Of a stretch of DNA of 29,927 nt, positions 2,160 to 29,765 are shown one piece after another; positions within the stretch are counted from its first letter, which is position 1, and each line of letters starts with the position of its first letter. The stretch comes from Planctomycetota bacterium (lineage in GTDB: Bacteria > Planctomycetota > Phycisphaerae > Phycisphaerales > SM1A02). The stretch is taken from assembly GCA_027295435.1 (NCBI GenBank), contig JAPUKX010000072.1:1-29927 (forward strand). Direction: 5' to 3'. Both the position numbers and the translations under genes were made by a program. Under the pieces are notes generated by a model that made no database searches, had not been told where the DNA came from, and worked only from the letters and a program-made list of their open reading frames with translations.

Positions 2160-2317
2160 CCTGATCGCGATTCCAACTACAGCCCCGAACGTCTGTGACT
2201 GGAAGCAAGGTTTCAGACGATCCTTGAGGTTCAGTTCGAGATCGACTCGGCTCGCACAAAACACCTGTTCCAGCACAGCTCTCCGTAACGGATTCCGTTC
2301 AAGAAGGGACAGAACAA

Positions 2318-3019: not shown

Positions 3020-3027
3020 CGATGCTT

Positions 3028-3065
3028 GGACGGAATAGGACGGAATAGCGGACGAAAGGACGGGA
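3028..3065 (+). repeat. Short tandem array GGACGGAATA x2 plus two degenerate GGACG units
   Basis: GGACGGAATA GGACGGAATA GC GGACGAAA GGACGGGA, starting 8 nt after the stop at 3019. Confidence 0.75.
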
Positions 3066-3077
3066 GTCTCTTATTCT

Positions 3078-3140
3078 TGTCCGGTTCGACCTGAGTCCTG
3101 CTCTGCCGACCTCAACTGCGACGGGGAGGTCAGCGCGTAG
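3078..3140 (+). pseudogene. Orphan fragment of a dockerin-like tail (CPVRPESCSADLNCDGEVSA*)
   Basis: The intergenic translation resembles CPDPPAPCTADLNGDSTVG and CPPPPAPCSADLDGDGSVG in the neighbouring tails. It ends in TAG at 3138-3140 and has no associated gene body. Confidence 0.6.
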
Positions 3141-3254
3141 CCAGGTGTCGCGATGATGGCAGCAGGCGGCGGACACCGCCGAGAAATCCGGCCGGGTCAA
3201 TCTGGGCAAGGCTGCGCCGGCGCCTTCATCGGTAAGTTGTTTTCCATTTTCTAC

Positions 3255-3284
3255 TTGCGATACGTTGCAACCGCGTGTTATTCT
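3255..3284 (+). promoter_or_regulatory. Possible sigma70-type promoter for the FG-GAP protein
   Basis: TTGCGA-N18-TATTCT with TG at the extended -10 position, in a locally AT-rich patch about 117 nt upstream of the ATG at 3402. Confidence 0.35.
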
Positions 3285-3401
3285 AAGACATATAGTACCT
3301 GCAGACGGCAGGCCGTGGTTGGAGCCGCCGGTCACTACACGCCAACGATGGACGTGCTCTTGCTTTACCGCCATTACTTCACTCAGGTAGGAAGAAGAAA
3401 G

Positions 3402-5126
3402 ATGTTTCGTCGCCACTCCTCTATATCATCCCGCTTGGTCCTTACTGGGGCGATGACATCGCTTCTGTCTGCGGGCACCCACGCTCAGCAGTTCATCGAG
3501 GAGTCGGCCAGCCGGTTCCCCTCGCCGAACCCCACCGACTACACCAACCAGCTTACGATCGGTGATATAGACGCCGACGGCGATCTGGACCTCATCTTCG
3601 CCAACGGCGCCGGCTTCTCATCGCCGGGCGCCGCCCAACCTCAGCGCGTCTACATCAACAATGGGTCCGGCGTGTTCACCGATGAGTCGGCGGCGCGGCT
3701 CGGCTTTTCCGGCTGGTGTCGCGGCGTCGAGCTGGGCGACATCGACGACGACGGCGATCTGGACCTGATCTTCGCCCAGGATTTCAACAAGCTGCCCCAC
3801 CTTTTCGCCAACGACGGCAACGGCTTCTTCACCGACGTCACCGCTGCGCAACTACCCAATATCACCCTCAGCAGCTCCCGCGCCCAGTTCGGCGATGTTG
3901 ACAACGACGGCGATCTTGACATCTACATCACCAGCGGGTCCACGAATCGCTTCGGCTGCGGCCAGTACCGCTTGTACCTCAACGACGGCAGCGGCTTCTT
4001 CACCGACGTGACGGCTACCCACCTTCCGATCGGGGCCGTCTGCAGCAACATGGACTGCATCTTCGGTGATATCGACGGCGACTTCGACCTTGATGTCAAG
4101 ACCGCCAGCACCGGCAGCAACAGCAGCCGCCTTTACCGAAACGACGGGACCGGCGTGTTTTCCCTCGTTACCACTATTCCGGGCGATAGCTCCTGCTATT
4201 CCTATGACTTCGGCGACATGGATGGAGACGGCGATCTGGATCTCATCGGCATCAATGCGGGCACCGGCTCCACCGAACTCCTGCTGCGCAACGACGGCAC
4301 CGGAAGCTTCACCAACGTCAGCGGGCAAATCTCGCCCAACACCAGCCTGGACGACAACGACAGCAAGTTCTTCGACTACGACAATGATGGAGATCTGGAT
4401 CTCATCATCGCCCGACTCGGCTCCGGCGGCGAACGAATCTACAACAACGATGGCCATGGCAATTTCACCCAGGTCGCCGGCGTGATCCAGATCATCAGCG
4501 ACTCTTCCCTCGACCTCATGGTCGCTGATCTCACCAACGATGGAAGGCTGGACATTGTGACCGCGCAAGGCGAATCCGGGAACTTCCAGAACCGTATCTA
4601 CATCAACAACGGGCCCGCGGACACCATCCCCCCAGCAATCCAGCGCACCGAGCAGGCGCCCGACACCGCCGACACCAAAGGGCCCTACGTCATTCGCACA
4701 GTGATCTACGACAGTGTCACGTCCGATCGCGGGCCGTTCCTCGATGACGTCACGCTCAACTACGTGATTGCGATCCCAGCCGGCCTGGGCGGCGTGCAGC
4801 AGGTGCCGATGAAGTGGGCCGGCAACTCGCTGTGGCGCGGTGAAATCCCCGGCCAGCCGTCCGGCAGCCTCGTTGAGTATTATGTCACCGCGACCGACTT
4901 CGCCGGCAACTCCAAGACCGGCCCCATCCTGACGTTCACCGTCACCTGTAGTGGCACCGTCGGCGACATCGATTGCAACGGCATCGTTAACATCTTCGAT
5001 CTGTTGGCGCTGATTGCCGCATGGGGTCCGTGTCCGCCTCCGCCGGCGCCCTGCTCCGCCGATCTCGACGGTGACGGCTCCGTCGGGATCCTCGACCTGC
5101 TCACACTCCTGGCGAACTGGGGATGA
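3402..5126 (+). CDS. Secreted FG-GAP/VCBS repeat protein with Ig-like domain and dockerin-like tail
   Basis: Seven GDxDxDGDLD-type repeats, each followed by a (L/I)xxNxGxGxF-like motif in most cases. Signal-like N-terminus from ATG 3402 with a purine-rich upstream region. Ig-like segment (VPMKW...VEYYVTATD) and tail 4962-5123. Confidence 0.85.
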   Translation: MFRRHSSISSRLVLTGAMTSLLSAGTHAQQFIEESASRFPSPNPTDYTNQLTIGDIDADGDLDLIFANGAGFSSPGAAQPQRVYINNGSGVFTDESAARLGFSGWCRGVELGDIDDDGDLDLIFAQDFNKLPHLFANDGNGFFTDVTAAQLPNITLSSSRAQFGDVDNDGDLDIYITSGSTNRFGCGQYRLYLNDGSGFFTDVTATHLPIGAVCSNMDCIFGDIDGDFDLDVKTASTGSNSSRLYRNDGTGVFSLVTTIPGDSSCYSYDFGDMDGDGDLDLIGINAGTGSTELLLRNDGTGSFTNVSGQISPNTSLDDNDSKFFDYDNDGDLDLIIARLGSGGERIYNNDGHGNFTQVAGVIQIISDSSLDLMVADLTNDGRLDIVTAQGESGNFQNRIYINNGPADTIPPAIQRTEQAPDTADTKGPYVIRTVIYDSVTSDRGPFLDDVTLNYVIAIPAGLGGVQQVPMKWAGNSLWRGEIPGQPSGSLVEYYVTATDFAGNSKTGPILTFTVTCSGTVGDIDCNGIVNIFDLLALIAAWGPCPPPPAPCSADLDGDGSVGILDLLTLLANWG

Positions 5127-13298: not shown

Positions 13299-14270
13299 CT
13301 ATTTCAGTTCTTCAAGGGCGGTTTCCAGCCAGATCAGGCATGCCTCGAGGTATCGCGGATTGCCTTCGGACCTGAGAAACTTCGGTGCAGTGCCCGCTAG
13401 CAAGGCTCGCCGAATCATGGCCAGGCGCGGGTAGTTTTCGTCAACGGCGAGCCCGTGGGCCTTGCGAGCATCGGCGATCGCCTTGACCGGTTTGGTGGGT
13501 CCAAGCCGCTGGGGTCGCGCCCACAGTTGACGCTCCAGGTAGATCGCATCCTCGACCCAGTGGCCGGGGCGGACTTCCGCCAGATCGATCAGACTCACCG
13601 GGCCCGACTCCAGAGAGACGCGGCTCATGGCATTGGCCAGATGAAGGTCGCCGTGCAGCCATTGGCGGACGTCCCGCGCCTGCCATTGCTCAAGAATCCG
13701 GTCGAGACGATGGCGAAGCACCTTGATGGCTGAGCTCCAACGCTGCTTGTGAGCGATGGCGTTGATCTTCAAACTTCGCTGCGCATCGCGCACCAGCTCA
13801 GTCCACGGCTCGGTCTTTGGTTGGGCATCGACGGGATAGGTTGATGTGGCGGCGTAGAATCGGGCGGCTGCGTCAGCCGTTCGCATCGTATGGTCCTGGT
13901 GCCAGTGCGTGCCAAGCGGGCCATGCGCGAAACGCTCCATAACCATCCAGGCCAGATCGTAGTCACCGAGGGTTTCGCCGGAGGCATACAGCTTCGCCAC
14001 TACCAGCCCCTGGCTGTCAGGGGTCTGAAGCCGGCGCGTCCACAGCAGCTCGCGCTGAACGACGGGCAGCTTCACCACCACAGGGGCCTCGCCGCCATCG
14101 GGTAGGCGCAACATCGCCGTGCCCGTGGCCGCTCCCCCTCGCTGCCAGTCAGCCTTGAACCAGGTGATTTCTCCCAGTTGTCCCCCGCAGGCCTCGGTAA
14201 GCACAGGGGCAAGGCTTGCCCCGAGGCTGCGCGCGCTGGGCTGGGGAAGATCGCCAGAATCGTGGCTCAC
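13299..14270 (-). CDS. Aminoglycoside phosphotransferase/choline kinase-like protein kinase-fold enzyme
   Basis: VVVKLP (beta-3 Lys), HGDLHLAN (HxDxxxxN catalytic loop), LIDLAE (DFG-equivalent). Confidence 0.85.
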   Translation of the reverse strand: MSHDSGDLPQPSARSLGASLAPVLTEACGGQLGEITWFKADWQRGGAATGTAMLRLPDGGEAPVVVKLPVVQRELLWTRRLQTPDSQGLVVAKLYASGETLGDYDLAWMVMERFAHGPLGTHWHQDHTMRTADAAARFYAATSTYPVDAQPKTEPWTELVRDAQRSLKINAIAHKQRWSSAIKVLRHRLDRILEQWQARDVRQWLHGDLHLANAMSRVSLESGPVSLIDLAEVRPGHWVEDAIYLERQLWARPQRLGPTKPVKAIADARKAHGLAVDENYPRLAMIRRALLAGTAPKFLRSEGNPRYLEACLIWLETALEELK

Positions 14271-14415
14271 GGCCGATGCTCAGGAACCAGGCTGATGCAG
14301 ACAGCCTATCTCGAACACCGGGCGTGAACAAGGGCGACCGCGGCCCAACCGGCACCGCCACGAGGTGAATCGAGGGCGGCTGGCCGGCCGTACAATTGAC
14401 CCTCGCGTGAGCACT

Positions 14416-17400
14416 ATGCGATCCACCCCCCAGCAGGTGAACCTCGCTCAGCACGAAGGTTGGGCCCTTTTCTCCGCCGCCGAGGCCATGCTCAAGGGTG
14501 CCCTGGAAGCGGAGACCGTCGTGAAACTGCTCACGGGACCTCGAAGCGAATCATTTTCCAGCCTGTTCGATCTGGGCGGGGACCGGTTGGTCTCGCAGTT
14601 GTTGCATACCCACGGAACGAGCCTGCTCGCAACTCCCGACGCCAGCCGTGGCGTGACACTCGCCGCGCATGCAGCGGTCTCGGCCCATCAAGCGTTCGCG
14701 CTGGTTCCCAACGACCAGCTCGATATCACCATGCCTGCGATCAGCCGGGCTTGCGACTGCTCATTTGATAGCGGGGGTGCAATGTGCCTGGTGTTGGAAG
14801 ACGATCCGCAGAATTGTCGGGCATCGTGCCCGCGACGCGCAGCCATTCGTTTGGACCTGCCATGCATCGAGCCGACAGGAGTTGCACAACTGCGCGATGC
14901 GATGGAGCAGGGACTGCGTCTGAGCCGAGCCGGGCGCGGCGTGGTGGCGATGGTGGTGCACCGCCGGATTCTGCGAGCCATCGAGACGCTGGATGCTCGT
15001 CCGAATCGAGTCACGGATCCTGTCCATACCCCTATTGTCCACCGCGACCGACGCGGCCCCCGCTGGGCTGAGACGGGCGGCGTGCTTCGGATGGCTCGTC
15101 GATTGGAGATGAACCTCACCACCAGCGCCCCCAGCCCCGGGGAAAGGCTGCCGGTCGGCTTCATTGTCATCGGCGCCGCCGCTCCGGCCATGTTCCACCT
15201 GATTCACGTGCTGCGGTTGCACGGCCGAGTGCCGGTGCTTCAGCTGGGCCTGGTTCACCCGATCGACGACTCGATCGTGCAGCGATTGCTCGGCCGATGC
15301 GAGCAAGTCGTTGTGCTGGAACCCCGACCCGGGTCGATCGAGACCGGCGTGCTTGGGGTGTGCGAGTCAATGCGCAGTCGCGGCGAGCAACCGGCCGTTG
15401 TGTGGTCTCGGACGCTGCCACCCGACCCGGCGGGGACCGCGCAGGTCATGCGGCCCGATGGAGCCCTGCACCCCTCGGCCTTGGCCGCCAAGATCGTCCA
15501 TTTGCTGCGCACCATCCGCCCCGGCCTGGTGGTGGCTTCCCCACCCGTGTCCAATCTGCTGCTGCCGGACGGGGCTGTGCCTCCTCGAGGCATAGAACTC
15601 GGCTCCGTCGGGGCGCTGGCCCAGATCCGTAGCGTGCTCGCCGATGTGGACCAATGGCTGCGCGATCAGTCGGCGATTGACGAGGGCTCCGCAGAGGCCC
15701 CAGAGCCGACGGCCCTGGCCATCGACGGGATCGAGCCGATCGGGGCCCCAGGGCGAGTCGTGCGCGTGGAGACGTGGCCATATCAACGATTTCTTTTCGA
15801 AGGATCCGCGTCCTTGCAGCAGGCGGCGAGTGATGACGGTTCGTGGATCTTTGTGATCTCGTCTATTGGTGCTGCGGATGGGCAAGACGTGCAGCGTATG
15901 GTGCGAGGCGCCGCTCCAGTCGCACGAGCTGACCGGGTGCGGATCGAGCTGGCCGATCTGAACGATCGCGCCGCATTGCAGGATTTGCTGCGCGCGCTGA
16001 CCCTGCTCGATCAACTGAGCGTGGTCATTGTGCGCGACGGGCCCCCAGCTCGGTATGACGTGGCTGCCATGGAACGGTCCCGCGCTGAAGTCGACCGCCT
16101 GGGATATGAACCCAGCCAGCGCGCGGTCTGGCCGGCGGAGGAGGCGTGCGCCATTCGTCATCCGGCTGACCCGATGCGGTCCCTCCCATCACATGCGTCG
16201 AGCTCAGCGGCGATGCGAACGCAGTTCAGCGTTGTCCGGACTTCCCAGTCTCGACCCGATACCGTGCAACGCCGGATCAGAATCCGTCCTCTCTTGGAGC
16301 AGGCGGAGGTCGTTCGTGCTCGGCCGCCAGCGAGCACTTGGCGGGATGCGCGGGGCGCCCGGTTGGCCCGACCCAAGCCCCTCCATGCCAGTCAGTCCCA
16401 ATGGCGAGCCCACTTGGCAGGATTTCGTGGACAGGCGCCAGGTGTGGCCGCATGGGCGCTGTGTGAAGCCGGCCGAATCATGGGGTACCAGGTCCGAAGT
16501 CTGAATGACCCCACGCCAATCGGCCCCGGCTTGCGCGCGTGGGCCCAGGTGCTGTTCGCACGACCGGGCCGAGATCAAGCTCCAGTGCCCGTCACCGCAG
16601 CGATCCCCTACGGCGAAGCTGATTTGTTTCTCGGACTGGAGCTTCGCGAAGCCCTGCGGGGCATCGAACCCGGCGGATCGTTGCGTGTGGCGAGTCCCGA
16701 CCGCACCTGGGTGATCGTCAACTCCGGGCCGTGTGAGGGCCAGCGCGACGCCCAGCCACCTGCGGAGTTCGCGGCCCAGGCAGCCCCGGCCCTGCTTGCG
16801 GTCTGCCGGCCCCAGTCACCGCTGATCGAAGACTTCGCCCGAGCCTGTCGCAGCGCTTTCCACACCGATCGCGTCGTTGATCTGGCTCTCCTCGGCGCGG
16901 CGTTCCAGCGCGGATTGATCCCGGTGACACCCGACGCCATCGAGGCAGCCTTACAGCAGGTCGAGGCGCGAGGCTTCGGCCGGGCTAATGAAGCGTTCCA
17001 TTTCGGCTGTCACCTTGCCGTCGATGGCCGGCAGTTTGCTCGCTGCAACGCCACCTGCGCCGACGAGGCCCCTCGCATCGTCCGCCGCACGATCCTGTTG
17101 TTGAAACGAAGACGGCGGGCTGGTACACGGTCGGGTACCGCTCGCTTGGCGCGGATACTGGAGCAGACCCTCGCCCAGATGCCCGGCTTGGCGGAAACGG
17201 ACCTCGGCCGACACGCCCGCCGAGACCTCGTGATCGCCCTGCAGCACTGCCTCGCCTGGGGTGGACTCGCCTATGCCCAGCGATACGCCGATCTGGTCAC
17301 CGCACTATACCTAGCTGACCGCGGCGACCAGGGGCGGGCGGTCACCCGCAGCGCGATTCTGCCGCTGGCCGAGGCCATGCTGATCCGCGATCCGATCTAC

Positions 17401-17871
17401 ATCGCGACCATGGCCACCAGCGCCGAGCAACGCCGTCGCGCGCGTCAGTGGCTCAACGTCAAGCTGGCTCGGGGCGACCGGCTCGAACGACGCTTCCTTA
17501 CCCGCATCGAACTGGTCGCCTTTCGGCGACGAATCAGGCTCGACATCCGATCCAGCCTCTGGCCGGCTCAACTTGTGGCGTGTGCGCGACACTGGATGCC
17601 ACAGCGGTGGCGCGGCACCTTGAGGGAGCGCCAAATCCGCGAGTATTTGATCGATGTAACCCAGCGCGCTGCCCGCGGCGCCACCCATGACTACCAGCAG
17701 TGGAGTGAAACCATGCAACGACTGCATGACCAGGCCCTGGCGGATCGCCTACGCGACATGGCGCTGGCGGAACTTCGGATGCTCATCGAGCCCGATCCTC
17801 GGCCTGCCGCCGAGCCGCAGCGCCTTGCGGCTGGGGCGTCCGGGCCACGAGGCATTCGTGCATCGGGCTGA
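14416..17871 (+). CDS. Fused indolepyruvate:ferredoxin oxidoreductase-like protein (alpha + beta/gamma + C-terminal helical domain) with degenerate cofactor motifs
   Basis: AEAMLKGALEA, VLQLGLVHP, VVVLEP, ADLFLGLE, WVIVN, LLGAAFQRGLIPVTPDAIEAAL, NEAFHFG and AYAQRYADLV occur in the order seen in single-chain IOR-family proteins. The ATG at 14416 is preferred over the GTG at 14365. Confidence 0.75.
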   Translation: MRSTPQQVNLAQHEGWALFSAAEAMLKGALEAETVVKLLTGPRSESFSSLFDLGGDRLVSQLLHTHGTSLLATPDASRGVTLAAHAAVSAHQAFALVPNDQLDITMPAISRACDCSFDSGGAMCLVLEDDPQNCRASCPRRAAIRLDLPCIEPTGVAQLRDAMEQGLRLSRAGRGVVAMVVHRRILRAIETLDARPNRVTDPVHTPIVHRDRRGPRWAETGGVLRMARRLEMNLTTSAPSPGERLPVGFIVIGAAAPAMFHLIHVLRLHGRVPVLQLGLVHPIDDSIVQRLLGRCEQVVVLEPRPGSIETGVLGVCESMRSRGEQPAVVWSRTLPPDPAGTAQVMRPDGALHPSALAAKIVHLLRTIRPGLVVASPPVSNLLLPDGAVPPRGIELGSVGALAQIRSVLADVDQWLRDQSAIDEGSAEAPEPTALAIDGIEPIGAPGRVVRVETWPYQRFLFEGSASLQQAASDDGSWIFVISSIGAADGQDVQRMVRGAAPVARADRVRIELADLNDRAALQDLLRALTLLDQLSVVIVRDGPPARYDVAAMERSRAEVDRLGYEPSQRAVWPAEEACAIRHPADPMRSLPSHASSSAAMRTQFSVVRTSQSRPDTVQRRIRIRPLLEQAEVVRARPPASTWRDARGARLARPKPLHASQSQWRAHLAGFRGQAPGVAAWALCEAGRIMGYQVRSLNDPTPIGPGLRAWAQVLFARPGRDQAPVPVTAAIPYGEADLFLGLELREALRGIEPGGSLRVASPDRTWVIVNSGPCEGQRDAQPPAEFAAQAAPALLAVCRPQSPLIEDFARACRSAFHTDRVVDLALLGAAFQRGLIPVTPDAIEAALQQVEARGFGRANEAFHFGCHLAVDGRQFARCNATCADEAPRIVRRTILLLKRRRRAGTRSGTARLARILEQTLAQMPGLAETDLGRHARRDLVIALQHCLAWGGLAYAQRYADLVTALYLADRGDQGRAVTRSAILPLAEAMLIRDPIYIATMATSAEQRRRARQWLNVKLARGDRLERRFLTRIELVAFRRRIRLDIRSSLWPAQLVACARHWMPQRWRGTLRERQIREYLIDVTQRAARGATHDYQQWSETMQRLHDQALADRLRDMALAELRMLIEPDPRPAAEPQRLAAGASGPRGIRASG

Positions 17872-18067: not shown

Positions 18068-18898
18068 TCATTGAGTGATGTACTCGGGAATCGAGTCAAT
18101 GCGAAGTATTTCTCCTGTCTCTGCATCAATTACCGTTCTCCAATGATCGATCGTAGGTCCAACACCCGGCGGGAAACCACGCCCTGGTGCACCCTCAGGT
18201 GGGCCCGGCGGCCTCGGTAGGTGGACCGGCGGTAATCCGCGCAATAGCACGATCCAAACTCGCCTATCCACAATGCCGACAAGTTCGGATGAGAACAGCA
18301 CGTACGTGGCGACGATCTCCTTAGCGCTTGCGGGATCTCCATGAGCCAAAGCGAGTGCTTCGCTGAAAGTAAGTCGTGGAGGCTCAGGGGGCAGTCCGCT
18401 GATGTGCTGACCAGCTGCCCCCCGCATCTGTTCGGCCTCACTTTGAACTGAAGGTGCCGGCCTGATGGGAGGAAGCTCCTCGGGCCACTTCGTCGTGGTC
18501 TTCATTACGTGGCCCGTATCAGGTGAAAGGAGCACGGTGATCGTTCGAATGTGCGGATTGATACGTCCGGCAGACGGCTCCCGAATCGTGACTCCATCCA
18601 AGACAATCTGTCAAGTTTCCTGCCCCTGCAGTTCTTCCGACAGGCCTGGGACCGTCTGGTCTCCGAGGGTCATGAGGGATGCGCTCGCGCGCATCGCGGG
18701 CCCCAATTCACCCATTGTCTGCTGAGCACGCTTGATCGCCTCCCCCTCAGTAAGGGTGATCGCAGCGCTCCTTGTCTCCGCCGTCTCACAAAGATCACGC
18801 GAGCAACCCCACGTTTGTATAGCCACTGAGCAGATGATACCCGCACCTGTTATCAACCTCGCAGGCGCTCGGCAACAACTAAGGCCAATCGTGCGCAT
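18068..18898 (-). pseudogene. Exported protein with two PepSY-like repeats, interrupted by one in-frame TGA (18613-18611)
   Basis: ORFs 18611-18934 and 18068-18601 share a frame and are separated by a single TGA (...QGQET*QIVLDGV...). The repeats end in TVLLSPDTGHVM and TVIDAETGEIL. Hydrophobic N-terminus with a Cys (TWGC) from ATG 18898. Confidence 0.65.
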
Positions 18899-18949
18899 TC
18901 TTGACCCACAATCTTTCGGCGGTTCGGTCCGCATCGTGGACCTGCCTTC

Positions 18950-18998: not shown

Positions 18999-20057
18999 TC
19001 AGTCGGTGGCGCCGATGGTCATGGCCACCGTGCGGTGCGCGATATCCTCCTCGTCCAGCCAGCGGTCCAGCGCGACAGCATCGTCGCGGACAATTCGTCG
19101 GCCGTCCGGATTCACGCCCTGATCCCGCATGAACTTCTTCAGCGTGACCGGCAAGCCGAACTCGATACTTTCGTGAAAGATATCGCGCTGCTCGACCTCA
19201 CCCCCGTATCGGTCGATCAAATGACGCACAAGGGCTCGGACAAGATCCTCCGGGGCGCTGGCCCCGGCCGTGATCAGCACCATCTCGACGCCGTCGAACC
19301 ATTCATCTTCGAGTTCTGAGGTGTCGTCGATCAAGTAAGCCGGCGTGCCAGCGGCTCGGGCGATCTCGGTCAGACGTACGGAATTGGAGCTGTTGCTGCT
19401 CCCCACGACCAGCACCAAGTCGCACTCTGGCGCGATTGCGGCGACCGCCTTCTGGCGATTCGTGGTGGCGTAGCAGATATCGTCACTCGGCGGATCCTTG
19501 ATATTCGGAAACGCGTCACGAAGGGCCTCGATGATCACGGACGCATCGTCCATACTCAGCGTCGTTTGCGTAAGATAGACCAGCTTGTCGGGGTCGTTGA
19601 TTCGGAGGTTGGGAATGTCCTGGGGCGAGGAGATGACCTGAATCGCATCCGGTGCTTCCCCCCTGGTGCCGATGATCTCCTGATGGTCGGAATGGCCGAT
19701 GAGCACAATCTGGTAGCCCTTGGCCGCGTAGCGGATCGCCTCCATGTGCACCTTCGTCACCAGCGGGCAGGTGGCGTCAATGACCGTGAGCTGGCGCTCG
19801 ACCGCCTCCTGTCGCAAAGCCGGGCTTACCCCGTGGGCACTGAACACCACGACTGAACCTTGCGGCGCCTGGTCAAGAGAATCGACGAACCGCACCCCGC
19901 GATCCCGGAACCGATCGACCACGTGCCGGTTGTGGACAATCTCGTGATGGACATAGATCGGCCTGCCCTGGTAGATCTCCACCAGCTGCTCAACCACGTC
20001 GATCGCCATATAGACACCGGCACAGAAGCCGCGCGGGTTGGCCAACAGCAGTTTCAT
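18999..20057 (-). CDS. ispH: 4-hydroxy-3-methylbut-2-enyl diphosphate reductase
   Basis: NPRGFCAGV, HEIVHN, FSAHG, DATCPLV, TQTTLS, ICYATTNRQ, SSNSSNS, TAGASAPE. All three Fe-S Cys are present. GGAG SD upstream. Confidence 0.97.
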   Translation of the reverse strand: MKLLLANPRGFCAGVYMAIDVVEQLVEIYQGRPIYVHHEIVHNRHVVDRFRDRGVRFVDSLDQAPQGSVVVFSAHGVSPALRQEAVERQLTVIDATCPLVTKVHMEAIRYAAKGYQIVLIGHSDHQEIIGTRGEAPDAIQVISSPQDIPNLRINDPDKLVYLTQTTLSMDDASVIIEALRDAFPNIKDPPSDDICYATTNRQKAVAAIAPECDLVLVVGSSNSSNSVRLTEIARAAGTPAYLIDDTSELEDEWFDGVEMVLITAGASAPEDLVRALVRHLIDRYGGEVEQRDIFHESIEFGLPVTLKKFMRDQGVNPDGRRIVRDDAVALDRWLDEEDIAHRTVAMTIGATD

Positions 20058-20179
20058 ACCATCTCCGGTGAGTTCAGCACCGGGATCATAGCAGGATCAA
20101 CTGGGCCACAGCGCCCTGGCCCCCCAGGACGGGCGTCGATACAGTGTGTGTTCACTCTGGCTGACTGCCGAGCCGATCG

Positions 20180-21142
20180 ATGACGTTGAATCCAGTCCAA
20201 CAGCTCGAGATCTACGGGCCGGACCGCTGCGACACGCTTACCGTCGAGCAGGCTCGGCTGTTCTGCCGCCGCCTCGCCGGCCATCGTTACGAAAACTTCT
20301 GCGTGCTCAGCAGCCTGATGCCCAAGGACCTGCGCGACGATTTCGCCGCGGCCTACGCGTTTTGCCGCTGGGCCGACGATTTGGGCGACGAGATGGGCGA
20401 CCGGAACCGTTCGCTTGAGTTGCTGGCGTGGTGGCGCCGCGAACTGAACCAGTGCTTCGCCGGCACCCCCCGCCACCCCGTGTTTATTGCCCTGGCACCC
20501 ACCATCAAACGCCATGAGCTTCCCATCGAGCCATTCGACAACTTGATTCGGGCCTTTGAGCAGGACCAGACTGTGCGACGATATGAGACGTGGACGCAGT
20601 TGCTGGATTATTGCCGTCTGAGCGCCGATCCTGTCGGCCGTCTTGTGCTCATGATCGCCGGTGAACGGCGAACCGAGGAGCAGTTCGAGCTCAGTGACGC
20701 CGTCTGCACCGCTTTGCAGTTGACCAATCATTGGCAGGACGTACGCCGGGACATCGTTGATCGCGACCGCATTTACATTCCACAGGAATTGATCAAAACC
20801 AGCGACTTCGAGCCCCGGCTGCTCGCCACGGCCCGCCACGGCTTCGCGCCCGACCATCATTCCCTTGATGAATCTCGCGAACTCATTCGCGACTGTGTTG
20901 AGCGAACGTGGCCGTTGTTCGAGAAAGGCGCCGAATTGATACCTAGGCTCAGGCCACACACCCGGCCGTTTGTGTGGCTCTTCCTCGCCGGCGGCCGGCG
21001 TGTTCTGCGTCTGATCGAATTATGGGGATATGAAACCGTCCTGCACCGCCCCAAGCTTTCCAAGGCGGCAAAGCTGAGCTTTGTGACCAGGGCGAAACTT
21101 GCCGCCGGTCTGGCCGGGCTTTTCGGAAGAGGACCCAGATGA
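20180..21142 (+). CDS. hpnC: Squalene-pathway synthase HpnC (hydroxysqualene synthase)
   Basis: HRYENFCV, AYAFCRWADDLGDE, AFEQDQ, YCRLSADPVGRLVL, LQLTNHWQDVRRD, RIYIP. Confidence 0.88.
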   Translation: MTLNPVQQLEIYGPDRCDTLTVEQARLFCRRLAGHRYENFCVLSSLMPKDLRDDFAAAYAFCRWADDLGDEMGDRNRSLELLAWWRRELNQCFAGTPRHPVFIALAPTIKRHELPIEPFDNLIRAFEQDQTVRRYETWTQLLDYCRLSADPVGRLVLMIAGERRTEEQFELSDAVCTALQLTNHWQDVRRDIVDRDRIYIPQELIKTSDFEPRLLATARHGFAPDHHSLDESRELIRDCVERTWPLFEKGAELIPRLRPHTRPFVWLFLAGGRRVLRLIELWGYETVLHRPKLSKAAKLSFVTRAKLAAGLAGLFGRGPR

Positions 21143-22056
21143 CCGCTATTGAAGGGCCGACAGTCTCAGAAGCCTCGCGCTACTGTCGCCGAATAACGCG
21201 CCGCCGAGCACGCAATTTCTATTACGGCTTGAAGCTGGCGCCGGAACCGCAGCGCTCGGCGCTCTTTTCAATCTACGCGTGGATGCGGCGGGCAGACGAC
21301 CTGGTGGATGGAACCACCGACGACACCAACCGTCCGCTGCGTAACATCGAAGCGTTTCGTTGCGCCACTGACGCGGCGCTGGCTGGTCAAATCGTTGATG
21401 ACGATCCGCTGTGGGTCGCTCTCGCCGATACCGCGACCGGCTTCAATGTCCACCGCGAAGCCCTGTATGCGATGCTCGACGGGCAAATCGACGACCTCAT
21501 CGGCCGGCAATACCAAACATTCGATCAGGTTCGCGAGTATTGCTATCGCGTGGCGTCCGCAGTTGGCCTGATCTGCATCGAAATCTGGGGATATCGCGAC
21601 CCAGTGGCCCGCGAACTCGCGGTCGATCGCGGAATCGCCTTCCAACTCACTAACATCCTGCGCGATTACAAGGAGGATTACGACTCGGGGCGCGTGTACC
21701 TGCCGGCTGAGGATTTTGCCCGCCACGATCTCACTCCATCGCAGGTGAGGCAATGGTCCGATCCGAGTCGCTGCCGGGAGTTTATTCTGGAACAGGCCGA
21801 GCGGGCCAAGTCGTTTTACGTTCGCTCGGCGTCGTTGGACCGATTGATCACACCATCATGCCGGCCGGCGCTGTGGGCCATGACGTCGATCTACCGCTCA
21901 TTGTTGCGAAAGATCCAGCGGGCGCCACAGCGAATCATCGTTGGTCGAAGGCTGCGTTTGAGTCCCCTGCGAAAGGGGGCCATCGCCCTGCGTGCCCGCT
22001 GCTTGGCCATTCATGATAATTCACCTCCGCCCAGATCGTGCATGACCAAGACATGA
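21139..22056 (+). CDS. hpnD: Presqualene diphosphate synthase HpnD (phytoene/squalene synthase family)
   Basis: RARNFYYG, YAWMRRADDLVD, YCYRVASAVG, GIAFQLTNILRDYKED, GRVYLP. ATGA overlap with hpnC. Confidence 0.88.
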   Translation: MTAIEGPTVSEASRYCRRITRRRARNFYYGLKLAPEPQRSALFSIYAWMRRADDLVDGTTDDTNRPLRNIEAFRCATDAALAGQIVDDDPLWVALADTATGFNVHREALYAMLDGQIDDLIGRQYQTFDQVREYCYRVASAVGLICIEIWGYRDPVARELAVDRGIAFQLTNILRDYKEDYDSGRVYLPAEDFARHDLTPSQVRQWSDPSRCREFILEQAERAKSFYVRSASLDRLITPSCRPALWAMTSIYRSLLRKIQRAPQRIIVGRRLRLSPLRKGAIALRARCLAIHDNSPPPRSCMTKT

Positions 22057-24824: not shown

Positions 24825-26984
24825 CTACCCCCAGTTGGCCAGCAAGGCAAGCAGGTCGAGGATGCCGACGTTCTCGTCCCCATCGAGATCGGCGGGACAA
24901 GGAGCGGGCGGATCGGGACACGGACCCCACGCCGCCAGCAGCGCCAGCAGATCAAGGATGCCGACCGTGCCGTCGCCATCGAGGTCGCCGGGGATCGTCT
25001 GCCCGCATTCGATGACCGCGACCTGCAGATCGTCCATAGCGGCTTCCACAATGGAGCCGTCGCCTTCGTCGGACGCGATGAACCGCAAGCGCACCTGCGC
25101 GGTCGGCGCAACGAAGTCGGCGACGCTGAACTGATGGAAGATCCACCCGCCGGTCGTATCCGGGCCGCCCGGACCGACCGTTTCCACATTGGTCCAGGTT
25201 GATCCGTTGTTGTTGGAGATGTCCACGACGAAAACGTCGGCGTTGGGCGAAGCCCCGGTATCGTTTGAGTACCACCGCCAATAGCTGATCTCGGCATTGG
25301 GGGCGCCTAAAAGATCAATGACCGGCGAGGTCAGCGTGGTCTGGCCGCTATCGACATCGTTCGCACCGATCGGGCCGCCGGGCGACCCCTGGCCGGTGAC
25401 GAAGCACATCGTTGCGGGATCGGGGGTGTGGTCGTTGCCAGGCTGAGCAGGAGTGCCGTTGGGATCGACGCGCTCCCAGATGCCGGTCGTCGCGTCGTCA
25501 GCCGGGGCGCCGACGACCCAGCCGGTGTCGGCCTCAAAGTCGTCTTCCATAACGATCTTCAAGTCGAAGCCGGAGAGGGTTTCGAACGTCGTGCTGGGAG
25601 CATCGAGCGGGTCTTTGACGCTGATCCCGGAGGTGGTCTGCGCACTGAGGTAATAGGACACGTTCTGCCCGCAAGGGATGGACGGGAAGACCACGTCATA
25701 GAGGCTCTCCGATATCTGCGCCAGGGGCACGTCCACGAAGCCGGCCCCTGCGTCGTAATGCAGCAGAGGCGAATCGGGATCGAGGGCGCCGCCGTCCTGG
25801 CCGACGATTTCAACCGCAAACGAGTCGCCATCGGGGTTGATCAGATCGGGTCGACCTTGGGGATAGCTAAAGACCAACAGCTGAGGCCCAACGTCGATTA
25901 TGTAGAGGCCCGTGGACAGATCGGAAACCACCACCCGGTCGGGGCCCAAGAACGGATAGACGCCCCAGGCCCCGTTGAAGCCGATCGGCGGTCCCGCAAA
26001 GGTATCATAGCTGGCGACGAATTCGAGCAAACCGGTGGCGGGGTCGATGTCGAAGACCTGCAGCCCCGCCTGGTACCAGGCGTTGTACAGGCGATAGCCG
26101 TCAATCACCTGATTGTGAACGCTAAACGCCTGTTTGCCAGGAAGGGCAAGCGAGTCAGTCAGTTCTAGGGTCACGAAGGTGCCCTGGTCGGTGATGCGAT
26201 ACACTTTGATCCCCCCGCCTTCGCGCTCCTCTCCGGTGACGACATAATCGCCATTCGCGGTCGGCCAGCAGGAGTGAGTGTTGTTGCCGCCGTCGGGCGT
26301 ACTGCCGAGGAAGGTGGGCATCTGCGTGGCCACATTGGTGACGTCATAGATCCACAGCCCGCTGTCCCACGCACAGGCATAGAGCCGGCCGTCACGCACC
26401 ACCATGTCGTGCACGAACGAACTACCGACGTTTTCGAGAATCCATTTCGGCGTAGTGATGGGCCCGGGAGGCGGGTTATCCGGATCAAGCCCCGTCAGAT
26501 CAACGATACCCACTCGCGTTGTTCCGCTGTCGGCGAAGTACAGAAAACCCGCGTTGTAGAAGACGTTATGGATGGCGTTGAACCCGGAGATGCTGACATC
26601 GATCAGCGCAATGGGGTCAAGAGGATTGCGAACATCAACGATGTGGACAGCAGCTTCGTTATTGCTTCCCAACCCAATGAACAGAAGGTCATCGGCGACC
26701 TTGACGTCCTGGGCCGAAGCGGAGCCGTTGGGAGGAGGCAACAGGTATTCCACAGCCTGAGGGTTGGTTGGATCGCTGATATCGACGATGTGAACGCCAG
26801 CATGGCCGAAGTGTCCAATGTAGGCGTAGTTTCCGTCTCCCCACACGTCGCCATAGGAGCCGGCGAACCCGTTCCAATGCCCAACCAGCGTGGCATCGAT
26901 CGGATCGTCCTGGGCCGGAGCCTGACCGACAAACAGGATCAGACAAACCAGAGGCCACCGCCTCCATCGCCGAGCGTTATTCAC
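24825..26984 (-). CDS. Secreted choice-of-anchor B / LVIVD-repeat protein with Ig-like and jelly-roll domains and a dockerin-like tail
   Basis: GTG at 26984 with SD GGAGGG, then a signal-like peptide. YGDVWG, IVDISDP, FVHD, NTHSCW, SVHN, GAWGVYPF. Tail 24989-24828. The track start at 27110 adds 42 non-signal residues. Confidence 0.85.
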   Translation of the reverse strand: MNNARRWRRWPLVCLILFVGQAPAQDDPIDATLVGHWNGFAGSYGDVWGDGNYAYIGHFGHAGVHIVDISDPTNPQAVEYLLPPPNGSASAQDVKVADDLLFIGLGSNNEAAVHIVDVRNPLDPIALIDVSISGFNAIHNVFYNAGFLYFADSGTTRVGIVDLTGLDPDNPPPGPITTPKWILENVGSSFVHDMVVRDGRLYACAWDSGLWIYDVTNVATQMPTFLGSTPDGGNNTHSCWPTANGDYVVTGEEREGGGIKVYRITDQGTFVTLELTDSLALPGKQAFSVHNQVIDGYRLYNAWYQAGLQVFDIDPATGLLEFVASYDTFAGPPIGFNGAWGVYPFLGPDRVVVSDLSTGLYIIDVGPQLLVFSYPQGRPDLINPDGDSFAVEIVGQDGGALDPDSPLLHYDAGAGFVDVPLAQISESLYDVVFPSIPCGQNVSYYLSAQTTSGISVKDPLDAPSTTFETLSGFDLKIVMEDDFEADTGWVVGAPADDATTGIWERVDPNGTPAQPGNDHTPDPATMCFVTGQGSPGGPIGANDVDSGQTTLTSPVIDLLGAPNAEISYWRWYSNDTGASPNADVFVVDISNNNGSTWTNVETVGPGGPDTTGGWIFHQFSVADFVAPTAQVRLRFIASDEGDGSIVEAAMDDLQVAVIECGQTIPGDLDGDGTVGILDLLALLAAWGPCPDPPAPCPADLDGDENVGILDLLALLANWG

Positions 26985-27109
26985 TTTATTCCCTCCAGTG
27001 TCGTGGCAGGCATTCAGCACATCATCTCGCAAAGGCTGCGATGACTCAGGGACGTTAGAATTTTCATTATACCTCGTCTGGATGAAGAGATCGCTGTATA
27101 CGTCGAGCA

Positions 27110-27184
27110 TCAGCCCCAGTTGGCCAGTAGCGGCGCCAAATCGAACGCATCAACGCAGCCGTCCGGCAGGTTGGCCGGGCTGGT
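27110..27184 (-). pseudogene. Orphan dockerin-like tail fragment (TSPANLPDGCVDAFDLAPLLANWG*)
   Basis: Frame bounded by TAG at 27187-27185 and TGA at 27112-27110. It matches the tail of the upstream gene (SGAANVPDGCVDAFDLAKLLAEWC) and ends like the downstream gene (LLANWG*). Confidence 0.75.
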
Positions 27185-27338
27185 CTACTAGATTCCACGT
27201 GTCTCGACGACCACGTTTGGCCGCGGAGATCATCATCGCAACCATCTGACATCACAGTAGGTATTGACGCATCGAGGAACACAATTGGCAGCCGCAGCGC
27301 CTTCTTCAAGCGGCTGCGGCTCACGCGGCGCGATTAAA

Positions 27339-27424
27339 CGAGCCGCGCACGTCAGTAAGCGAACTCGGTGTGTCCGCTCCTCGCCACGGCGAGTCGGCTG
27401 CGGAGACCTCACGGTCGCGGCTCG
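27339..27424. repeat. REP-like inverted repeat with internal hairpin
   Basis: CGAGCCGCG (27339-27347) and CGCGGCTCG (27416-27424) form a 9-bp perfect inverted pair. An internal CTCGCC-AC-GGCGAG hairpin lies between them, and an AGCCGCAGC...GCTGCGGCT hairpin lies just before. Confidence 0.55.
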
Positions 27425-27455
27425 GAACGGTCGCTCCAGTTGCTTCGCAACCGCT

Positions 27456-29765
27456 CTAGAAGCAGGTGCCGCACGGATTGCCGCCGGCGACGGAGCACCA
27501 CTCGGCCAGCAGCTTCGCCAGGTCGAACGCATCGACACACCCATCCGGCACATTGGCCGCACCGGAGATATCTGCAACGGCGAGATTCGCCGGCGTGCAG
27601 TTCTCGCAAGGCGGGCTCGGCGGGTTCGGATCGTTGACGCCGGAGCACCACGCCCCGAGTATGGCCCCGAGGTCAAAGGCATCAACGCATCCATCAGGTG
27701 CACCACGCGGGCCGTTGATGTCGGCGGTGGCTGACGGCTCGCACACGACCTCGCTCACCGTGAAGTCGTCCACCGCGGCCTCGACCAAGGAGCCTGCGCC
27801 CTCATCGGACGCGATGAACCGCACGCGCACCTGCGCGGTGGGCAGAACAAAGTCCGTCACATTGAACGCGTGGAAGAACCATCCGCCAGAGGTCTGCGGA
27901 CCGCTGGGGCCGATGGTCTCGACGTTGGTCCAGGTTGATCCGTTGTCGTTGGAGATGTCAACGACGAAGACATCGGCGTTCGGATCGGCACCGGTGCTGT
28001 TGGAGTACCACCGCCAATAGCTAATCTGAGCATCGGGGATCGCGGAGAGGTCGATGGTCGGCGTCGTAAGCGTGGTTTGGCCGCCGTCCACGTCGTTGTC
28101 GCCCAGGCCGCAGCCGGGCGCGCACTGGCCGGTCACGAAGCACATCGTTCCGGGGACGGGGGTGTGGTCGTCTTCGGGTTGAGCAGCGGTGCCGACCGGA
28201 TCGACCCGCTCCCAAATGCCGGTGCTGGCGTCATCGCCGGGGGCACCGACCACCCACCCAGTGTCCGCCTCCAGGTCGTCTTGCGACTGCACAAGGATCT
28301 CGTTAGCGGAGAGAACGCTGAATGTCTCCCCGGGCGCGCCGGAGGGATCGGTGAACGTTGTGCCGCTGGTCGCTTGGGCGCTGACGTAGTAGGACACCTC
28401 GAGGCCGCACTCGATCGCCGGGAAGACCGCGTCGTATACATTCTCGGACACGAGCTGCATGGGGACGGTGACGAAGCCCTGGCCGATGTCGTAATGCAAC
28501 AGCGCCGTATTCGGCTCAACGGTCACCCCACAGCTCGCCGCAACTTCCACCAGGACCGCCGTGCCACCCTGTGGATCAATCAGCTCCGGCCGGCCCTGGG
28601 GGTAGGCGAAGGTCAGGGCGCCGGCACTCAGGGCGTCTGCGGGGTCCAGGATAAACAAGCCACGATTGATGTCGCTGACAATCACCGTTCCGCTGGGAAA
28701 GAACGGATATACGCCCCAGGCGCCGTCAAACCCGCTGCCGTCATTCTCCGGATACGTATCAAACCACCCAACCTGGACCGGGTTCACCGGATCATCGGCG
28801 CAGAAAATGCGCAGACCAGCGTGGTACTCGGCCTCGTAGATGAAACCGTCGCGGACGTACAGATTGTGATCGGTGGCTGACACGCCGGAGCTGTAGGTGT
28901 TCACGAGCAGTGGATTGGACAGGTCGGTCACGTCGAAGATGAGGGTCTCGTTGACGCCGTCGGTTTCGTCATCGAGGTACAGGTATTGCCTATCCTCGCT
29001 CAACCAGCACTGGTGGCAGTAGCTGAGGTTCGGATAGGTCGTGCGGGAGAGGCGGAACATGTTGGACTTGTTCGTGACATCGTAGATATCCAGGCCGGTA
29101 CCGCCATTGGCGCAGAAGGCGATCTGCTTCCCGGCGTAGGGGCCTGAGGTGTACGTGACGATCTGGGCGTCGTGGACATACGCGCCTTGCGAGCTGGAAA
29201 TCTGGCCGGCAAGCGTCGGATTGGCTGGATCGGACAGATCAAAGGCGACGAGACGGCCGCCGTTGATGTTGGCTCCACACAGGTAGAGGAATCCGCTGTC
29301 GCTGTCGATGGCGACGTCGTGACTTGTGGCAAGGCCGCCTTTAGTCACCTGCGCCACCAGTGTCACGTTGCCGTTGTCCACATCCGACAAATCGACGACG
29401 TCCATGCCGCCGCCGCATTCGTTGACCACATCGCAGTAGTCGCCATAGACCTTAACGTCCCCCCAGAGGCAGTTGGTATGCGCGACCTGCCCGACGATGA
29501 CCGGGCTGCTGGGAATGGTGATCTCGACGACGACGAGCGTGTTGGACAGGCCCATCAACGCGTATTCACGCCCCGAAGCTGAGACGTAACCCCAACAATC
29601 GTTGCCGTTGGCGGCGCCGCCGAGGGCACTCAGGTCGAGCCAGGCGTGCTGGGAGACGTTGTTCGAGGTGAACTGAGCGCCCGCTTGAGCGAGTCCGAGC
29701 CCGGCCGCCGCCAGCGATGCCACCACAAAACGGCCCATCACCGATCGTGACCTAAGGCTTCCCAT
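27456..29765 (-). CDS. Secreted choice-of-anchor B family protein with a Cys-rich variant dockerin-like tail
   Basis: Signal-like N-terminus, then NDCWGY...GREYALMG, WGDVKVY, SHDV, YVHD, YCHQCW, LDDE, TDHNLY, GAWGVYPF. Tail 27725-27459 contains PDGCVDAFDL twice. Confidence 0.88.
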   Translation of the reverse strand: MGSLRSRSVMGRFVVASLAAAGLGLAQAGAQFTSNNVSQHAWLDLSALGGAANGNDCWGYVSASGREYALMGLSNTLVVVEITIPSSPVIVGQVAHTNCLWGDVKVYGDYCDVVNECGGGMDVVDLSDVDNGNVTLVAQVTKGGLATSHDVAIDSDSGFLYLCGANINGGRLVAFDLSDPANPTLAGQISSSQGAYVHDAQIVTYTSGPYAGKQIAFCANGGTGLDIYDVTNKSNMFRLSRTTYPNLSYCHQCWLSEDRQYLYLDDETDGVNETLIFDVTDLSNPLLVNTYSSGVSATDHNLYVRDGFIYEAEYHAGLRIFCADDPVNPVQVGWFDTYPENDGSGFDGAWGVYPFFPSGTVIVSDINRGLFILDPADALSAGALTFAYPQGRPELIDPQGGTAVLVEVAASCGVTVEPNTALLHYDIGQGFVTVPMQLVSENVYDAVFPAIECGLEVSYYVSAQATSGTTFTDPSGAPGETFSVLSANEILVQSQDDLEADTGWVVGAPGDDASTGIWERVDPVGTAAQPEDDHTPVPGTMCFVTGQCAPGCGLGDNDVDGGQTTLTTPTIDLSAIPDAQISYWRWYSNSTGADPNADVFVVDISNDNGSTWTNVETIGPSGPQTSGGWFFHAFNVTDFVLPTAQVRVRFIASDEGAGSLVEAAVDDFTVSEVVCEPSATADINGPRGAPDGCVDAFDLGAILGAWCSGVNDPNPPSPPCENCTPANLAVADISGAANVPDGCVDAFDLAKLLAEWCSVAGGNPCGTCF

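What the first reader, a model, noticed from the sequence alone, without database searches (positions are those of the whole stretch)
14416..17871. Full-length IOR-like protein with its cofactor motifs eroded: a probable pseudoenzyme
Seen: a 1151-codon uninterrupted ORF keeps the domain order and structural motifs of fused indolepyruvate:ferredoxin oxidoreductases. At the expected positions, GYPGSP reads GPRSES and the CPGCPH-type cluster motif is missing (VPPRGIELGS). The GD(S/G)...N TPP/Mg motif reads PYQRFLFEG...VISS, and the ferredoxin CxxCxxC region has one Cys (EEACAIRH). The GxGGQG loop reads GFRGQA. Established: 2-oxoacid:ferredoxin oxidoreductases need TPP and [4Fe-4S] clusters. Inference: a long intact frame despite loss of these motifs suggests selection for a non-catalytic role, such as a scaffold, a regulatory subunit that heterodimerises with an active IOR, or an acyl-CoA sensor.
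Basis: partly seen in the sequence, partly recalled or inferred. Interest (0 to 1): 0.7.

Follow-up and report, generated by a model that had tools for sequence, protein, structure and literature searches.

The report
Conserved cofactor-less IOR-derived pseudoenzyme
This marine-sediment planctomycete gene encodes a full-length, well-folded relative of an oxoacid-oxidising enzyme that has lost every vitamin-B1 and iron-sulfur binding site, yet every member of its bacterial family searched keeps it under purifying selection, so it is a 'dead enzyme' reused for an unknown job.

Summary
Observation confirmed; interpretation largely right. window:14416-17871(+) is an intact 1151-codon gene, homologous over its whole length to fused indolepyruvate:ferredoxin oxidoreductases (IOR) (BLASTP 2e-61 and 4e-30 against a canonical IOR from the same order).

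This is not recent decay:
- The same losses occur in all 113 full-length family members.
- The gene is a single-copy, syntenic core gene in 56 of 56 genomes of its GTDB family.
- dN/dS is 0.12-0.32, like neighbouring ispH and rlmN.
- The AlphaFold model is confident (pLDDT 88).
- Conservation has moved from the cofactor domains to domains II, III and the DUF6537 tail.

No intact paralogue was found in any of the 56 family genomes. Four of five near-complete ones had no detectable OFOR at all, so a heterodimer with an active IOR is not supported.

At least three other cofactor-less lineages exist in the same order. None was found together with a canonical IOR.

Function is unknown. Usual neighbours are a HAD phosphatase and an APH-fold kinase, though this window's sub-clade lacks the HAD.

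The scan noted relatives before on other DNA (e1-2257089, e1-3010918). I found no paper describing them.

The parts
14416..17871 (+). Coding sequence of the cofactor-less fused-IOR homologue (P0001, 1151 aa). Alternative starts are GTG 14407 and GTG 14365.
14455..15015 (+). Domain I (former TPP pyrimidine-binding domain). It holds the GPRSES relic of GYPGSP (14536-14553), Ala76 in place of the catalytic Glu (within 14632-14652), and LEDDP (14794-14808).
   Evidence: pLDDT above 90
15088..15525 (+). Domain II, the most conserved domain of the degenerate family (1.14 times the global identity).
15526..16095 (+). Former TPP diphosphate-binding (PP/VI) domain, about 56 aa shorter than canonical. 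The CPGCPH site reads VPPRGIELGS (15577-15606), GDG reads PYQRFLFEG (15778-15804), and LDN reads VISS (15853-15864).
16096..16395 (+). Former 2x[4Fe-4S] ferredoxin domain. One relic Cys remains in EEACAIRH (16138-16161). This is the least conserved region.
16396..17025 (+). Domain III (POR gamma / CoA-domain fold). The Gly loop is altered to GFRGQAPG (16420-16443) and the GEADL block is retained (16612-16626). This domain has the highest density of residues shared with canonical IORs.
17026..17745 (+). C-terminal DUF6537-like helical domain, homologous to that of canonical fused IORs.
13299..14270 (-). Divergently transcribed APH-fold kinase, a recurrent neighbour of the pseudo-IOR in the family.
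14271..14415 (.). 145-bp divergent intergenic region between the kinase gene and the pseudo-IOR gene. I presume it is a shared promoter region (inferred, not tested).

Best explanation
The gene encodes a full-length descendant of the fused IorA-IorB-DUF6537 type of indolepyruvate/2-oxoacid:ferredoxin oxidoreductase. Every cofactor and substrate site of the parent enzyme has been substituted or deleted: the YPITP-type substrate loop, the TPP-activating Glu, the GDG...N diphosphate/Mg motif, the scored Cys ligands of the proximal [4Fe-4S] cluster (CPGCPH and GDTGCY motifs), both CxxCxxCxxxCP ferredoxin motifs, and the Gly-rich loop of the CoA domain. It therefore cannot carry out TPP/Fe-S oxidative decarboxylation (shown at the sequence level). 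It is nevertheless a functional protein (shown). It is the single-copy, syntenic, vertically inherited orthologue in all 56 sampled genomes of one Phycisphaerales family. It folds confidently, evolves under purifying selection in all six regions, and has 55 newly fixed residues. Constraint has moved from the cofactor domains to domains II, III and DUF6537. Inferred mechanism: a non-redox binding or scaffolding protein that works through the retained surfaces of domains II, III and DUF6537. These surfaces are shared with canonical IORs, so it may keep a cofactor-independent role the parent already had. Its usual co-transcription with a Cof-type HAD-IIB phosphatase and its divergent APH-fold kinase suggest that it binds or presents a phosphorylated small molecule or partner. 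Sub-confidences: dead for OFOR chemistry but selected, about 0.9; non-catalytic binder or scaffold rather than a new enzyme, about 0.6; link to phospho-metabolite handling, about 0.25.
For: Homology and domain order. Loss of all motifs, family-wide. Confident fold (pLDDT 88.2, pTM 0.86). Presence in 56 of 56 family genomes as a single copy. Rigid synteny in 34 loci. dN/dS 0.12-0.32, matching ispH and rlmN, with all six regions at 0.17-0.28. Constraint redistribution and PP-domain shrinkage. 74 positions shared with canonical IORs and 55 newly fixed. No partner OFOR found in most family genomes checked. No indels in independent samples. HAD upstream on the same strand in at least 20 of 34 loci, with a 4-bp overlap in L011. 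HAD identified as Cof-type HAD-IIB.
Against: There is no biochemical or expression evidence. The only RNA-library signal is low and equally patchy over the neighbouring genes. The whole locus, including murE, murF, mraY, rluD and ispH, is syntenic in this family, so adjacency to the HAD and APH genes may reflect descent rather than function. The window's own sub-clade has lost the HAD gene at this locus, and no clear orthologue was found in the 86%-complete genome. Several newly fixed charged residues lie in the former active-site region of domain I (H66, R78, E128, H182, R198), which would also fit a new catalytic or ligand site. I could not get model coordinates, so I could not test whether these residues cluster.
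Confidence: 0.55

Rival explanations
1. Neo-enzyme. The OFOR shell has acquired a new, cofactor-independent catalytic site, for example in the former domain-I pocket. It acts in a short pathway with the HAD phosphatase, the APH-fold kinase and, in some lineages, an NPP phosphodiesterase on a phosphorylated metabolite.
For: There are 55 family-specific fixed residues, many of them charged or His, several in the former active-site region of domain I. All domains are under purifying selection, including the former PP domain. The phospho-enzyme neighbours are HAD, APH and NPP in L033.
Against: No known catalytic motif or family match beyond IOR was found. The HAD is dispensable at the locus in the window's sub-clade. 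NPP was seen in only 1 of 34 loci. The former cofactor domains are the least conserved parts.
Confidence: 0.22
2. Regulatory or structural subunit that pairs with an active IOR or OFOR.
For: OFORs are obligate dimers that interact through domains I, II and VI (PMC5020499). G000 has one separate gene with a POR-gamma domain at a contig end.
Against: No second IOR-like gene was found in any of the 56 family genomes. In G194, G216, G208 and G151 (95-99% complete, two of them closed) no POR_N domain was found. The only POR hit in G194, G216 and G208 is the pseudo-IOR itself, and G151 had none.
Confidence: 0.04
3. Still a working oxidoreductase that binds TPP and Fe-S clusters through non-canonical ligands.
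For: The fold of domains I-III is retained. Four Cys are conserved at 80-91%.
Against: No family member has CxxCxxC, and only 18 of 121 have any CxxC. The four conserved Cys lie in four different domains and co-occur in only 61% of members. The GDG...N motif and its helix are substituted or deleted, and Pfam TPP_enzyme_C is undetectable although it is present in the canonical relative.
Confidence: 0.03
4. Recently inactivated gene on its way to becoming a pseudogene, or an assembly artefact.
For: None beyond the motif loss itself.
Against: There are 113 or more full-length homologues at 38-63% identity with the same losses. dN/dS is well below 1. The gene is present in 56 of 56 family genomes. 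The locus is identical and indel-free in independent metagenomes from at least ten studies.
Confidence: 0.01

Closest known systems
Fused indolepyruvate:ferredoxin oxidoreductase family protein (NCBIfam NF009589/PRK13030; Pfam TPP_enzyme_C + POR + DUF6537), for example the canonical Phycisphaerae proteins P0122-P0124
   Same: Same length class and same domain order (I, II, PP, ferredoxin, III, DUF6537). Identity is 27-30% with E = 2e-61 and 4e-30. 74 positions are conserved in both forms, densest in domain III. Both are found in the same bacterial order.
   Different: The protein scores 52 bits against a curated cut-off of 816. It retains 4 of the 22 scored cofactor-ligand positions, against 20-22 in canonical forms. 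The PP domain is about 56 aa shorter. The family is about one third less conserved: mean pairwise identity is 0.45 against 0.68 in the canonical clade. The genomic context differs.
Two-subunit IorA/IorB and other 2-oxoacid:ferredoxin oxidoreductases with solved structures (PFOR 1B0P and 6CIN, OGOR 6N2N, StOFOR 5B46)
   Same: The fold of domains I and II matches at Z 26-28, and PFOR alignments through domain III give Z about 25.
   Different: The YPITP-type loop, the CxGC cluster motif and the TPP site are missing. PMC5020499 describes these as essential for activity. Sequence identity is about 10%.
Other cofactor-less fused-IOR lineages of the same order (family f80; genus g174; the G001/g2 group) and the half-decayed P0350
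   Same: They are also full length at about 1150-1210 aa, have also lost the TPP and Fe-S ligands, and were also never found with a canonical copy in the same genome.
   Different: They form separate long-branched clades with only 25-30% identity to this protein. They sit in different contexts. In g174 the gene lies next to an E1-lipoyl-KAS III fusion. G001 still shows relics such as RTPTFPPGS.
Dead OFOR-family proteins noted earlier in this scan (e1-2257089, e1-3010918, e1-4830729, e1-4508627)
   Same: The same phenomenon: an OFOR shell kept under selection without its cofactor residues. e1-3010918 describes the same HAD, degenerate IOR and divergent APH arrangement.
   Different: They lie on other DNA. 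Word look-up found no near-identical stretch. The archaeal cases are multi-subunit enzymes, not the fused form. I did not verify those reports.

Membership tests
Fused indolepyruvate:ferredoxin oxidoreductase (NF009589/PRK13030) | Whole-protein score above the curated NCBIfam cut-off (816 bits) | tested here: not met
   52.2 bits. For comparison, the canonical Phycisphaerae protein P0122 scores 488 bits, also below the cut-off but about ten times higher.
Fused indolepyruvate:ferredoxin oxidoreductase (NF009589/PRK13030) | Common descent and domain order (IorA-like, IorB-like, DUF6537) | tested here: met
   BLASTP 2e-61 and 4e-30 against P0122, collinear; structural Z 25-28; nearest Atlas clusters.
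Fused indolepyruvate:ferredoxin oxidoreductase (NF009589/PRK13030) | TPP binding: GDG...N diphosphate/Mg motif, a Pfam TPP_enzyme_C hit, and the activating Glu in domain I | tested here: not met
   GDG reads PYQ, the LDN block is deleted, and the Glu aligns with Ala76. There is no TPP_enzyme_C hit, although P0122 has one.
Fused indolepyruvate:ferredoxin oxidoreductase (NF009589/PRK13030) | Substrate loop of the YPITP type (GYPGSP in IOR) | tested here: not met
   It reads GPRSES, and the family consensus is GPR followed by variable residues. The role of the motif is described in PMC5020499.
Fused indolepyruvate:ferredoxin oxidoreductase (NF009589/PRK13030) | Cys ligands of the proximal [4Fe-4S] cluster (CPGCPH and GDTGC motifs) | tested here: not met
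   0 of the 3 scored ligands remain; the segments are deleted.
Fused indolepyruvate:ferredoxin oxidoreductase (NF009589/PRK13030) | Two CxxCxxCxxxCP ferredoxin motifs | tested here: not met
   1 of the 7 scored Cys remains (Cys578). No family member has CxxCxxC.
Fused indolepyruvate:ferredoxin oxidoreductase (NF009589/PRK13030) | Gly-rich GxGGxG loop of domain III (CoA domain) | tested here: not met
   It reads GFRGQAPG. Arg671 is fixed in at least 90% of the family.
Fused indolepyruvate:ferredoxin oxidoreductase (NF009589/PRK13030) | C-terminal DUF6537 domain | tested here: inconclusive
   Pfam gives 24.9 bits against a cut-off of 27, but BLASTP shows clear homology through aa 1096.
Pseudoenzyme (a conserved homologue of an enzyme that lacks its catalytic or cofactor residues) | Loss of residues essential to the parent activity | tested here: met
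Pseudoenzyme (a conserved homologue of an enzyme that lacks its catalytic or cofactor residues) | Maintained by purifying selection and widely conserved | tested here: met
   dN/dS 0.12-0.32, matching the control genes; present in 56 of 56 family genomes; 54 invariant columns among 56 sequences.
Pseudoenzyme (a conserved homologue of an enzyme that lacks its catalytic or cofactor residues) | Demonstrated absence of the parent catalytic activity, and expression of the protein | not testable with these tools
   This needs purified protein and transcript or proteome data. The RNA-library signal is inconclusive.

The most novel reading that the evidence does not exclude
The fused-IOR scaffold has a second function that needs none of its cofactors. 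In Phycisphaerales the catalytic machinery was discarded repeatedly (f1, f80, g174, the G001 group, with P0350 caught half-way), while the full-length shell was kept each time. The dead and live forms were never found together because either one can supply that second function. The f1 protein would then be a clean natural separation-of-function allele of an OFOR.
Probability: 0.3. Interest if true: 0.75.

Novelty: new variant of a known kind. Interest (0 to 1): 0.55.

Why it matters
OFOR/IOR genes are routinely counted in metagenome surveys as markers of anaerobic amino-acid and 2-oxoacid metabolism. Some sources label this family's members as 'indolepyruvate ferredoxin oxidoreductase' or '2-oxoacid:ferredoxin oxidoreductase gamma subunit'. 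For a whole family of marine-sediment Phycisphaerales, that label would credit the organisms with a redox capacity the protein cannot have.

Biologically, a 1150-residue, six-domain enzyme has lost TPP and three Fe-S clusters, yet it stays a universal core gene with the same selective constraint as ispH. That is an unusually large and clean pseudoenzyme. Sister lineages hold live, half-dead and dead versions, which makes this a natural series for asking what an OFOR shell does besides catalysis.

I found no paper on cofactor-less OFORs or on DUF6537.

Tried and rejected
- Sequence search of the PDB found nothing.
- Literature searches for pseudo-OFORs, DUF6537 and IOR in Phycisphaerae found nothing relevant.
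- Positional orthology with canonical IORs: rejected. The canonical, f80 and g174 genes lie in unrelated contexts.
- Arg enrichment of the newly fixed residues as a clue to polyanion binding: rejected. It is mostly a K-to-R shift tied to GC content (R+K 13.6% against 13.0%).
- Second long ORF beside the g174 genes as a further IOR paralogue: rejected. It is an E1-lipoyl-KAS III fusion.
- Rooting the tree: the search for outgroup canonical IORs listed only Phycisphaerae sequences. The gene trees therefore cannot separate one loss from several.
- Transcription evidence: one 'metatranscriptomic WGA' run gives thin, patchy cover that is no stronger on the gene than on its neighbours, which is inconclusive.
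- Spatial clustering of conserved residues: not possible, because model coordinates are not exposed to scripts.
- HAD orthologue elsewhere in G000: only a weak partial match (32% identity over 80 aa). The genome is 86% complete, so absence is not shown.
- I first mislabelled G001 as genus g174. It is genus g2.
- I first read the catalytic Glu as replaced by Asp. The alignment places it on Ala76, with Asp75 one position before.
Full report
**The observation.** The frame from ATG 14416 to TGA 17871 is open for 1151 codons. It is open from GTG 14365, and the database copy of the window's own protein has 1154 residues, which implies GTG 14407. The start is therefore uncertain by a few codons. Homologues align from about residue 9.

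Pfam detects only a sub-threshold DUF6537 match (24.9 against 27 bits). NCBIfam's fused-IOR model PRK13030 gives 52 bits against a cut-off of 816. No PDB chain matches by sequence.

**Reference sequences.** A scan of 151 genomes of the phylum found fused IOR genes in three genomes of the same order or class. Their products, P0122-P0124, carry every canonical motif: GYPGSP, NNEA, FCPGCPH, GDTGCY, GDGTF.HSG, LDN.TTAMTGHQ, two CxxCxxCxxxCP motifs and GVGGMG. They also score Pfam TPP_enzyme_C, POR and DUF6537.

P0001 aligns collinearly to P0122 at 2e-61 (aa 490-1096, 30% identity) and 4e-30 (aa 1-365, 27% identity). The stretch between, the former TPP diphosphate domain, is too eroded for BLAST.

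In addition, the TPP-activating Glu aligns with Ala76. PMC5020499 shows that the YPITP-type loop is essential for substrate binding and that the CxGC motif ligates the proximal cluster.

**Not recent decay.** A search of 5.8 billion proteins returned 146 hits, of which the 120 listed share 38-63% identity. They are nearly all full length and come from Planctomycetota/Phycisphaerales MAGs. All 113 full-length members share the same substitutions and deletions.

Of 22 scored ligand positions, P0001 keeps 4, the family representatives keep 2-6, and canonical proteins keep 20-22. No member has a CxxCxxC motif. The four best-conserved Cys lie in four different domains and co-occur in only 61% of members, so there is no alternative cluster site.

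**Distribution.** In 201 genomes of the order, the protein is present in 56 of 56 genomes of the window's own GTDB family (f1). It is a single copy apart from fragmented assemblies, at 33-47% identity. Family f3 has none (0 of 56). Families f2 and f4 mostly have canonical IORs. Family f80 (11 of 11) and genus g174 have other forms of about 1185 aa.

No genome was seen with two IOR-like genes. The exhaustive HMMER search of 1.84 billion representatives found only 384 relatives at E up to 0.001, so the group is small and sharply bounded.

**Selection.** Within five genera, Nei-Gojobori dN/dS is 0.12-0.32. In the same genome pairs it is 0.05-0.29 for rlmN and 0.07-0.30 for ispH. Each of the six regions of the protein lies between 0.17 and 0.28. 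NG86 on GC-rich genes is rough, which is why I used the neighbouring genes as the yardstick.

Two independent marine-sediment DNA runs reproduce the locus without any indel, and at least ten studies hold it.

**Structure.** AlphaFold2 run on a 56-sequence alignment gives mean pLDDT 88.2 and pTM 0.86. Low confidence is confined to loops at 204-213 and 586-597 and to the C-terminal tail.

Foldseek's best matches are PFORs at E about 1e-10. VIA-align gives Z 26-28 for residues 14-365 on OFOR alpha domains I and II. It gives Z about 25 for residues 13-872 on PFOR domains I-III. The folds are kept even though the ligands are gone.

**Where the constraint now lies.** In 60 canonical Phycisphaerae IORs, the cofactor domains I, PP and Fd are the most conserved, at 1.07-1.10 times the global identity. 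In 60 family members these domains are the least conserved (0.92, 0.90 and 0.81), and domains II and III are the most conserved (1.14 and 1.11). The PP domain has shrunk from 245 to 189 residues.

74 positions are conserved in both forms, densest in domain III. 55 positions are fixed only in the degenerate family, among them H66, R78, E128, H182 and R198 in the former active-site half of domain I, and R671 inside the former Gly loop. The Arg richness is mainly a K-to-R shift.

**Partners and context.** The window's genome (86% complete) has no other IOR and no POR_N domain. It has one gene with a POR-gamma domain that runs off contig C122 after pntAB.

In four of five near-complete family genomes no POR_N domain was found. 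The only POR-domain hit in three of them is this protein, and the fourth had none. So a heterodimer with a live OFOR cannot be the general mechanism.

Across 34 family loci the order is: rluD(-), hyp250(-), APH-fold kinase(-), Cof-type HAD-IIB phosphatase(+), pseudo-IOR(+), rlmN(-), ispH(-), hpnC/D(+). The HAD gene overlaps the pseudo-IOR start by 4 bp in L011. One lineage adds an NPP phosphodiesterase downstream.

The window's sub-clade lacks both the HAD gene and rlmN at the locus. No clear HAD orthologue was found elsewhere in the genome.

Because the whole region is syntenic in this family, adjacency is weak evidence for a functional link.

**Other dead lineages.** f80, g174 and a group around G001 (genus g2, family f2) also lack every motif. 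G001 keeps relics such as RTPTFPPGS. P0350 is half-decayed: it has no TPP motif and one of three proximal-cluster Cys, but five of seven ferredoxin Cys.

In gene trees the canonical proteins form one short-branched clade (100/100, 99). The dead lineages branch outside it as a ladder: P0350, P0373 and the G001 group first, then g174, then f80, then f1. Because the canonical clade is one side of a branch and I obtained no outgroup, a single loss is not excluded.

The taxonomy shows dead lineages inside family f2, most of whose genera keep the live enzyme. That pattern, together with the strict mutual exclusivity, fits either parallel losses or redundant paralogues. Both readings imply that the live and dead forms share a function that does not depend on the cofactors. 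This is inference.

**Verdict.** The protein is a conserved, cofactor-less descendant of a fused IOR: a pseudoenzyme with respect to OFOR chemistry, and functional by every evolutionary test available here. What it does is unknown.

My best guess is a non-redox binding or scaffold role through domains II, III and DUF6537. A new enzyme acting with the HAD and APH neighbours is the main rival.

The scan noted relatives before on other DNA (e1-2257089, e1-3010918). I found no publication describing them.

Noticed in passing
L021:9288-12812 (+), genome G312, genus g174; 70% identical copy at G282:C1:886474-889941: Directly downstream of the g174 degenerate IOR lies a 1174-aa fusion of 2-oxoacid dehydrogenase E1 alpha, E1 beta (Transket_pyr plus Transketolase_C), a lipoyl domain and a FabH-type KAS III. 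It may be an oxygen-tolerant route from 2-oxoacids to acyl primers that replaced the IOR chemistry. It was not found as a fusion in G000, G194, G175 or G001.
   Followed up: partly
P0350 (1206 aa): A half-decayed fused IOR. The TPP motif scores 0 of 4 and the proximal-cluster Cys 1 of 3, but the ferredoxin Cys score 5 of 7 and the Gly loop 3 of 4. In the tree it sits next to the canonical clade.
   Followed up: partly
It was seen in only 1 of the 34 family loci I hold.
   Followed up: partly
window 18068-18934 (-): Two ORFs without family matches (177 aa with a faint PepSY hit, and 107 aa) occupy the place where rlmN lies in most related loci. The HAD gene usually found upstream of the pseudo-IOR is also missing here and in the nearest relatives (L013, L014).
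   Followed up: partly
G000 contig C122 (L035:1-3373): pntA and pntB (NAD(P) transhydrogenase) are followed by a gene that begins with a POR-gamma domain and runs off the contig end. It is probably the only genuine OFOR of this MAG (KorA-like), and the rest is unassembled.
   Followed up: partly
window 18999-22056: ispH (-) is followed by two tandem squalene/phytoene-synthase genes (hpnC/hpnD-like, +). In relatives an amine-oxidase (hpnE-like) gene follows, which makes a hopanoid/squalene module conserved beside the pseudo-IOR locus.
   Followed up: no
window 717-5126 and 24825-29765: Several large secreted-looking proteins (phytase-like, FG-GAP, LVIVD repeat) end in dockerin-type tails. Other notes on this window already flag these (e1-5316497).
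   Followed up: no
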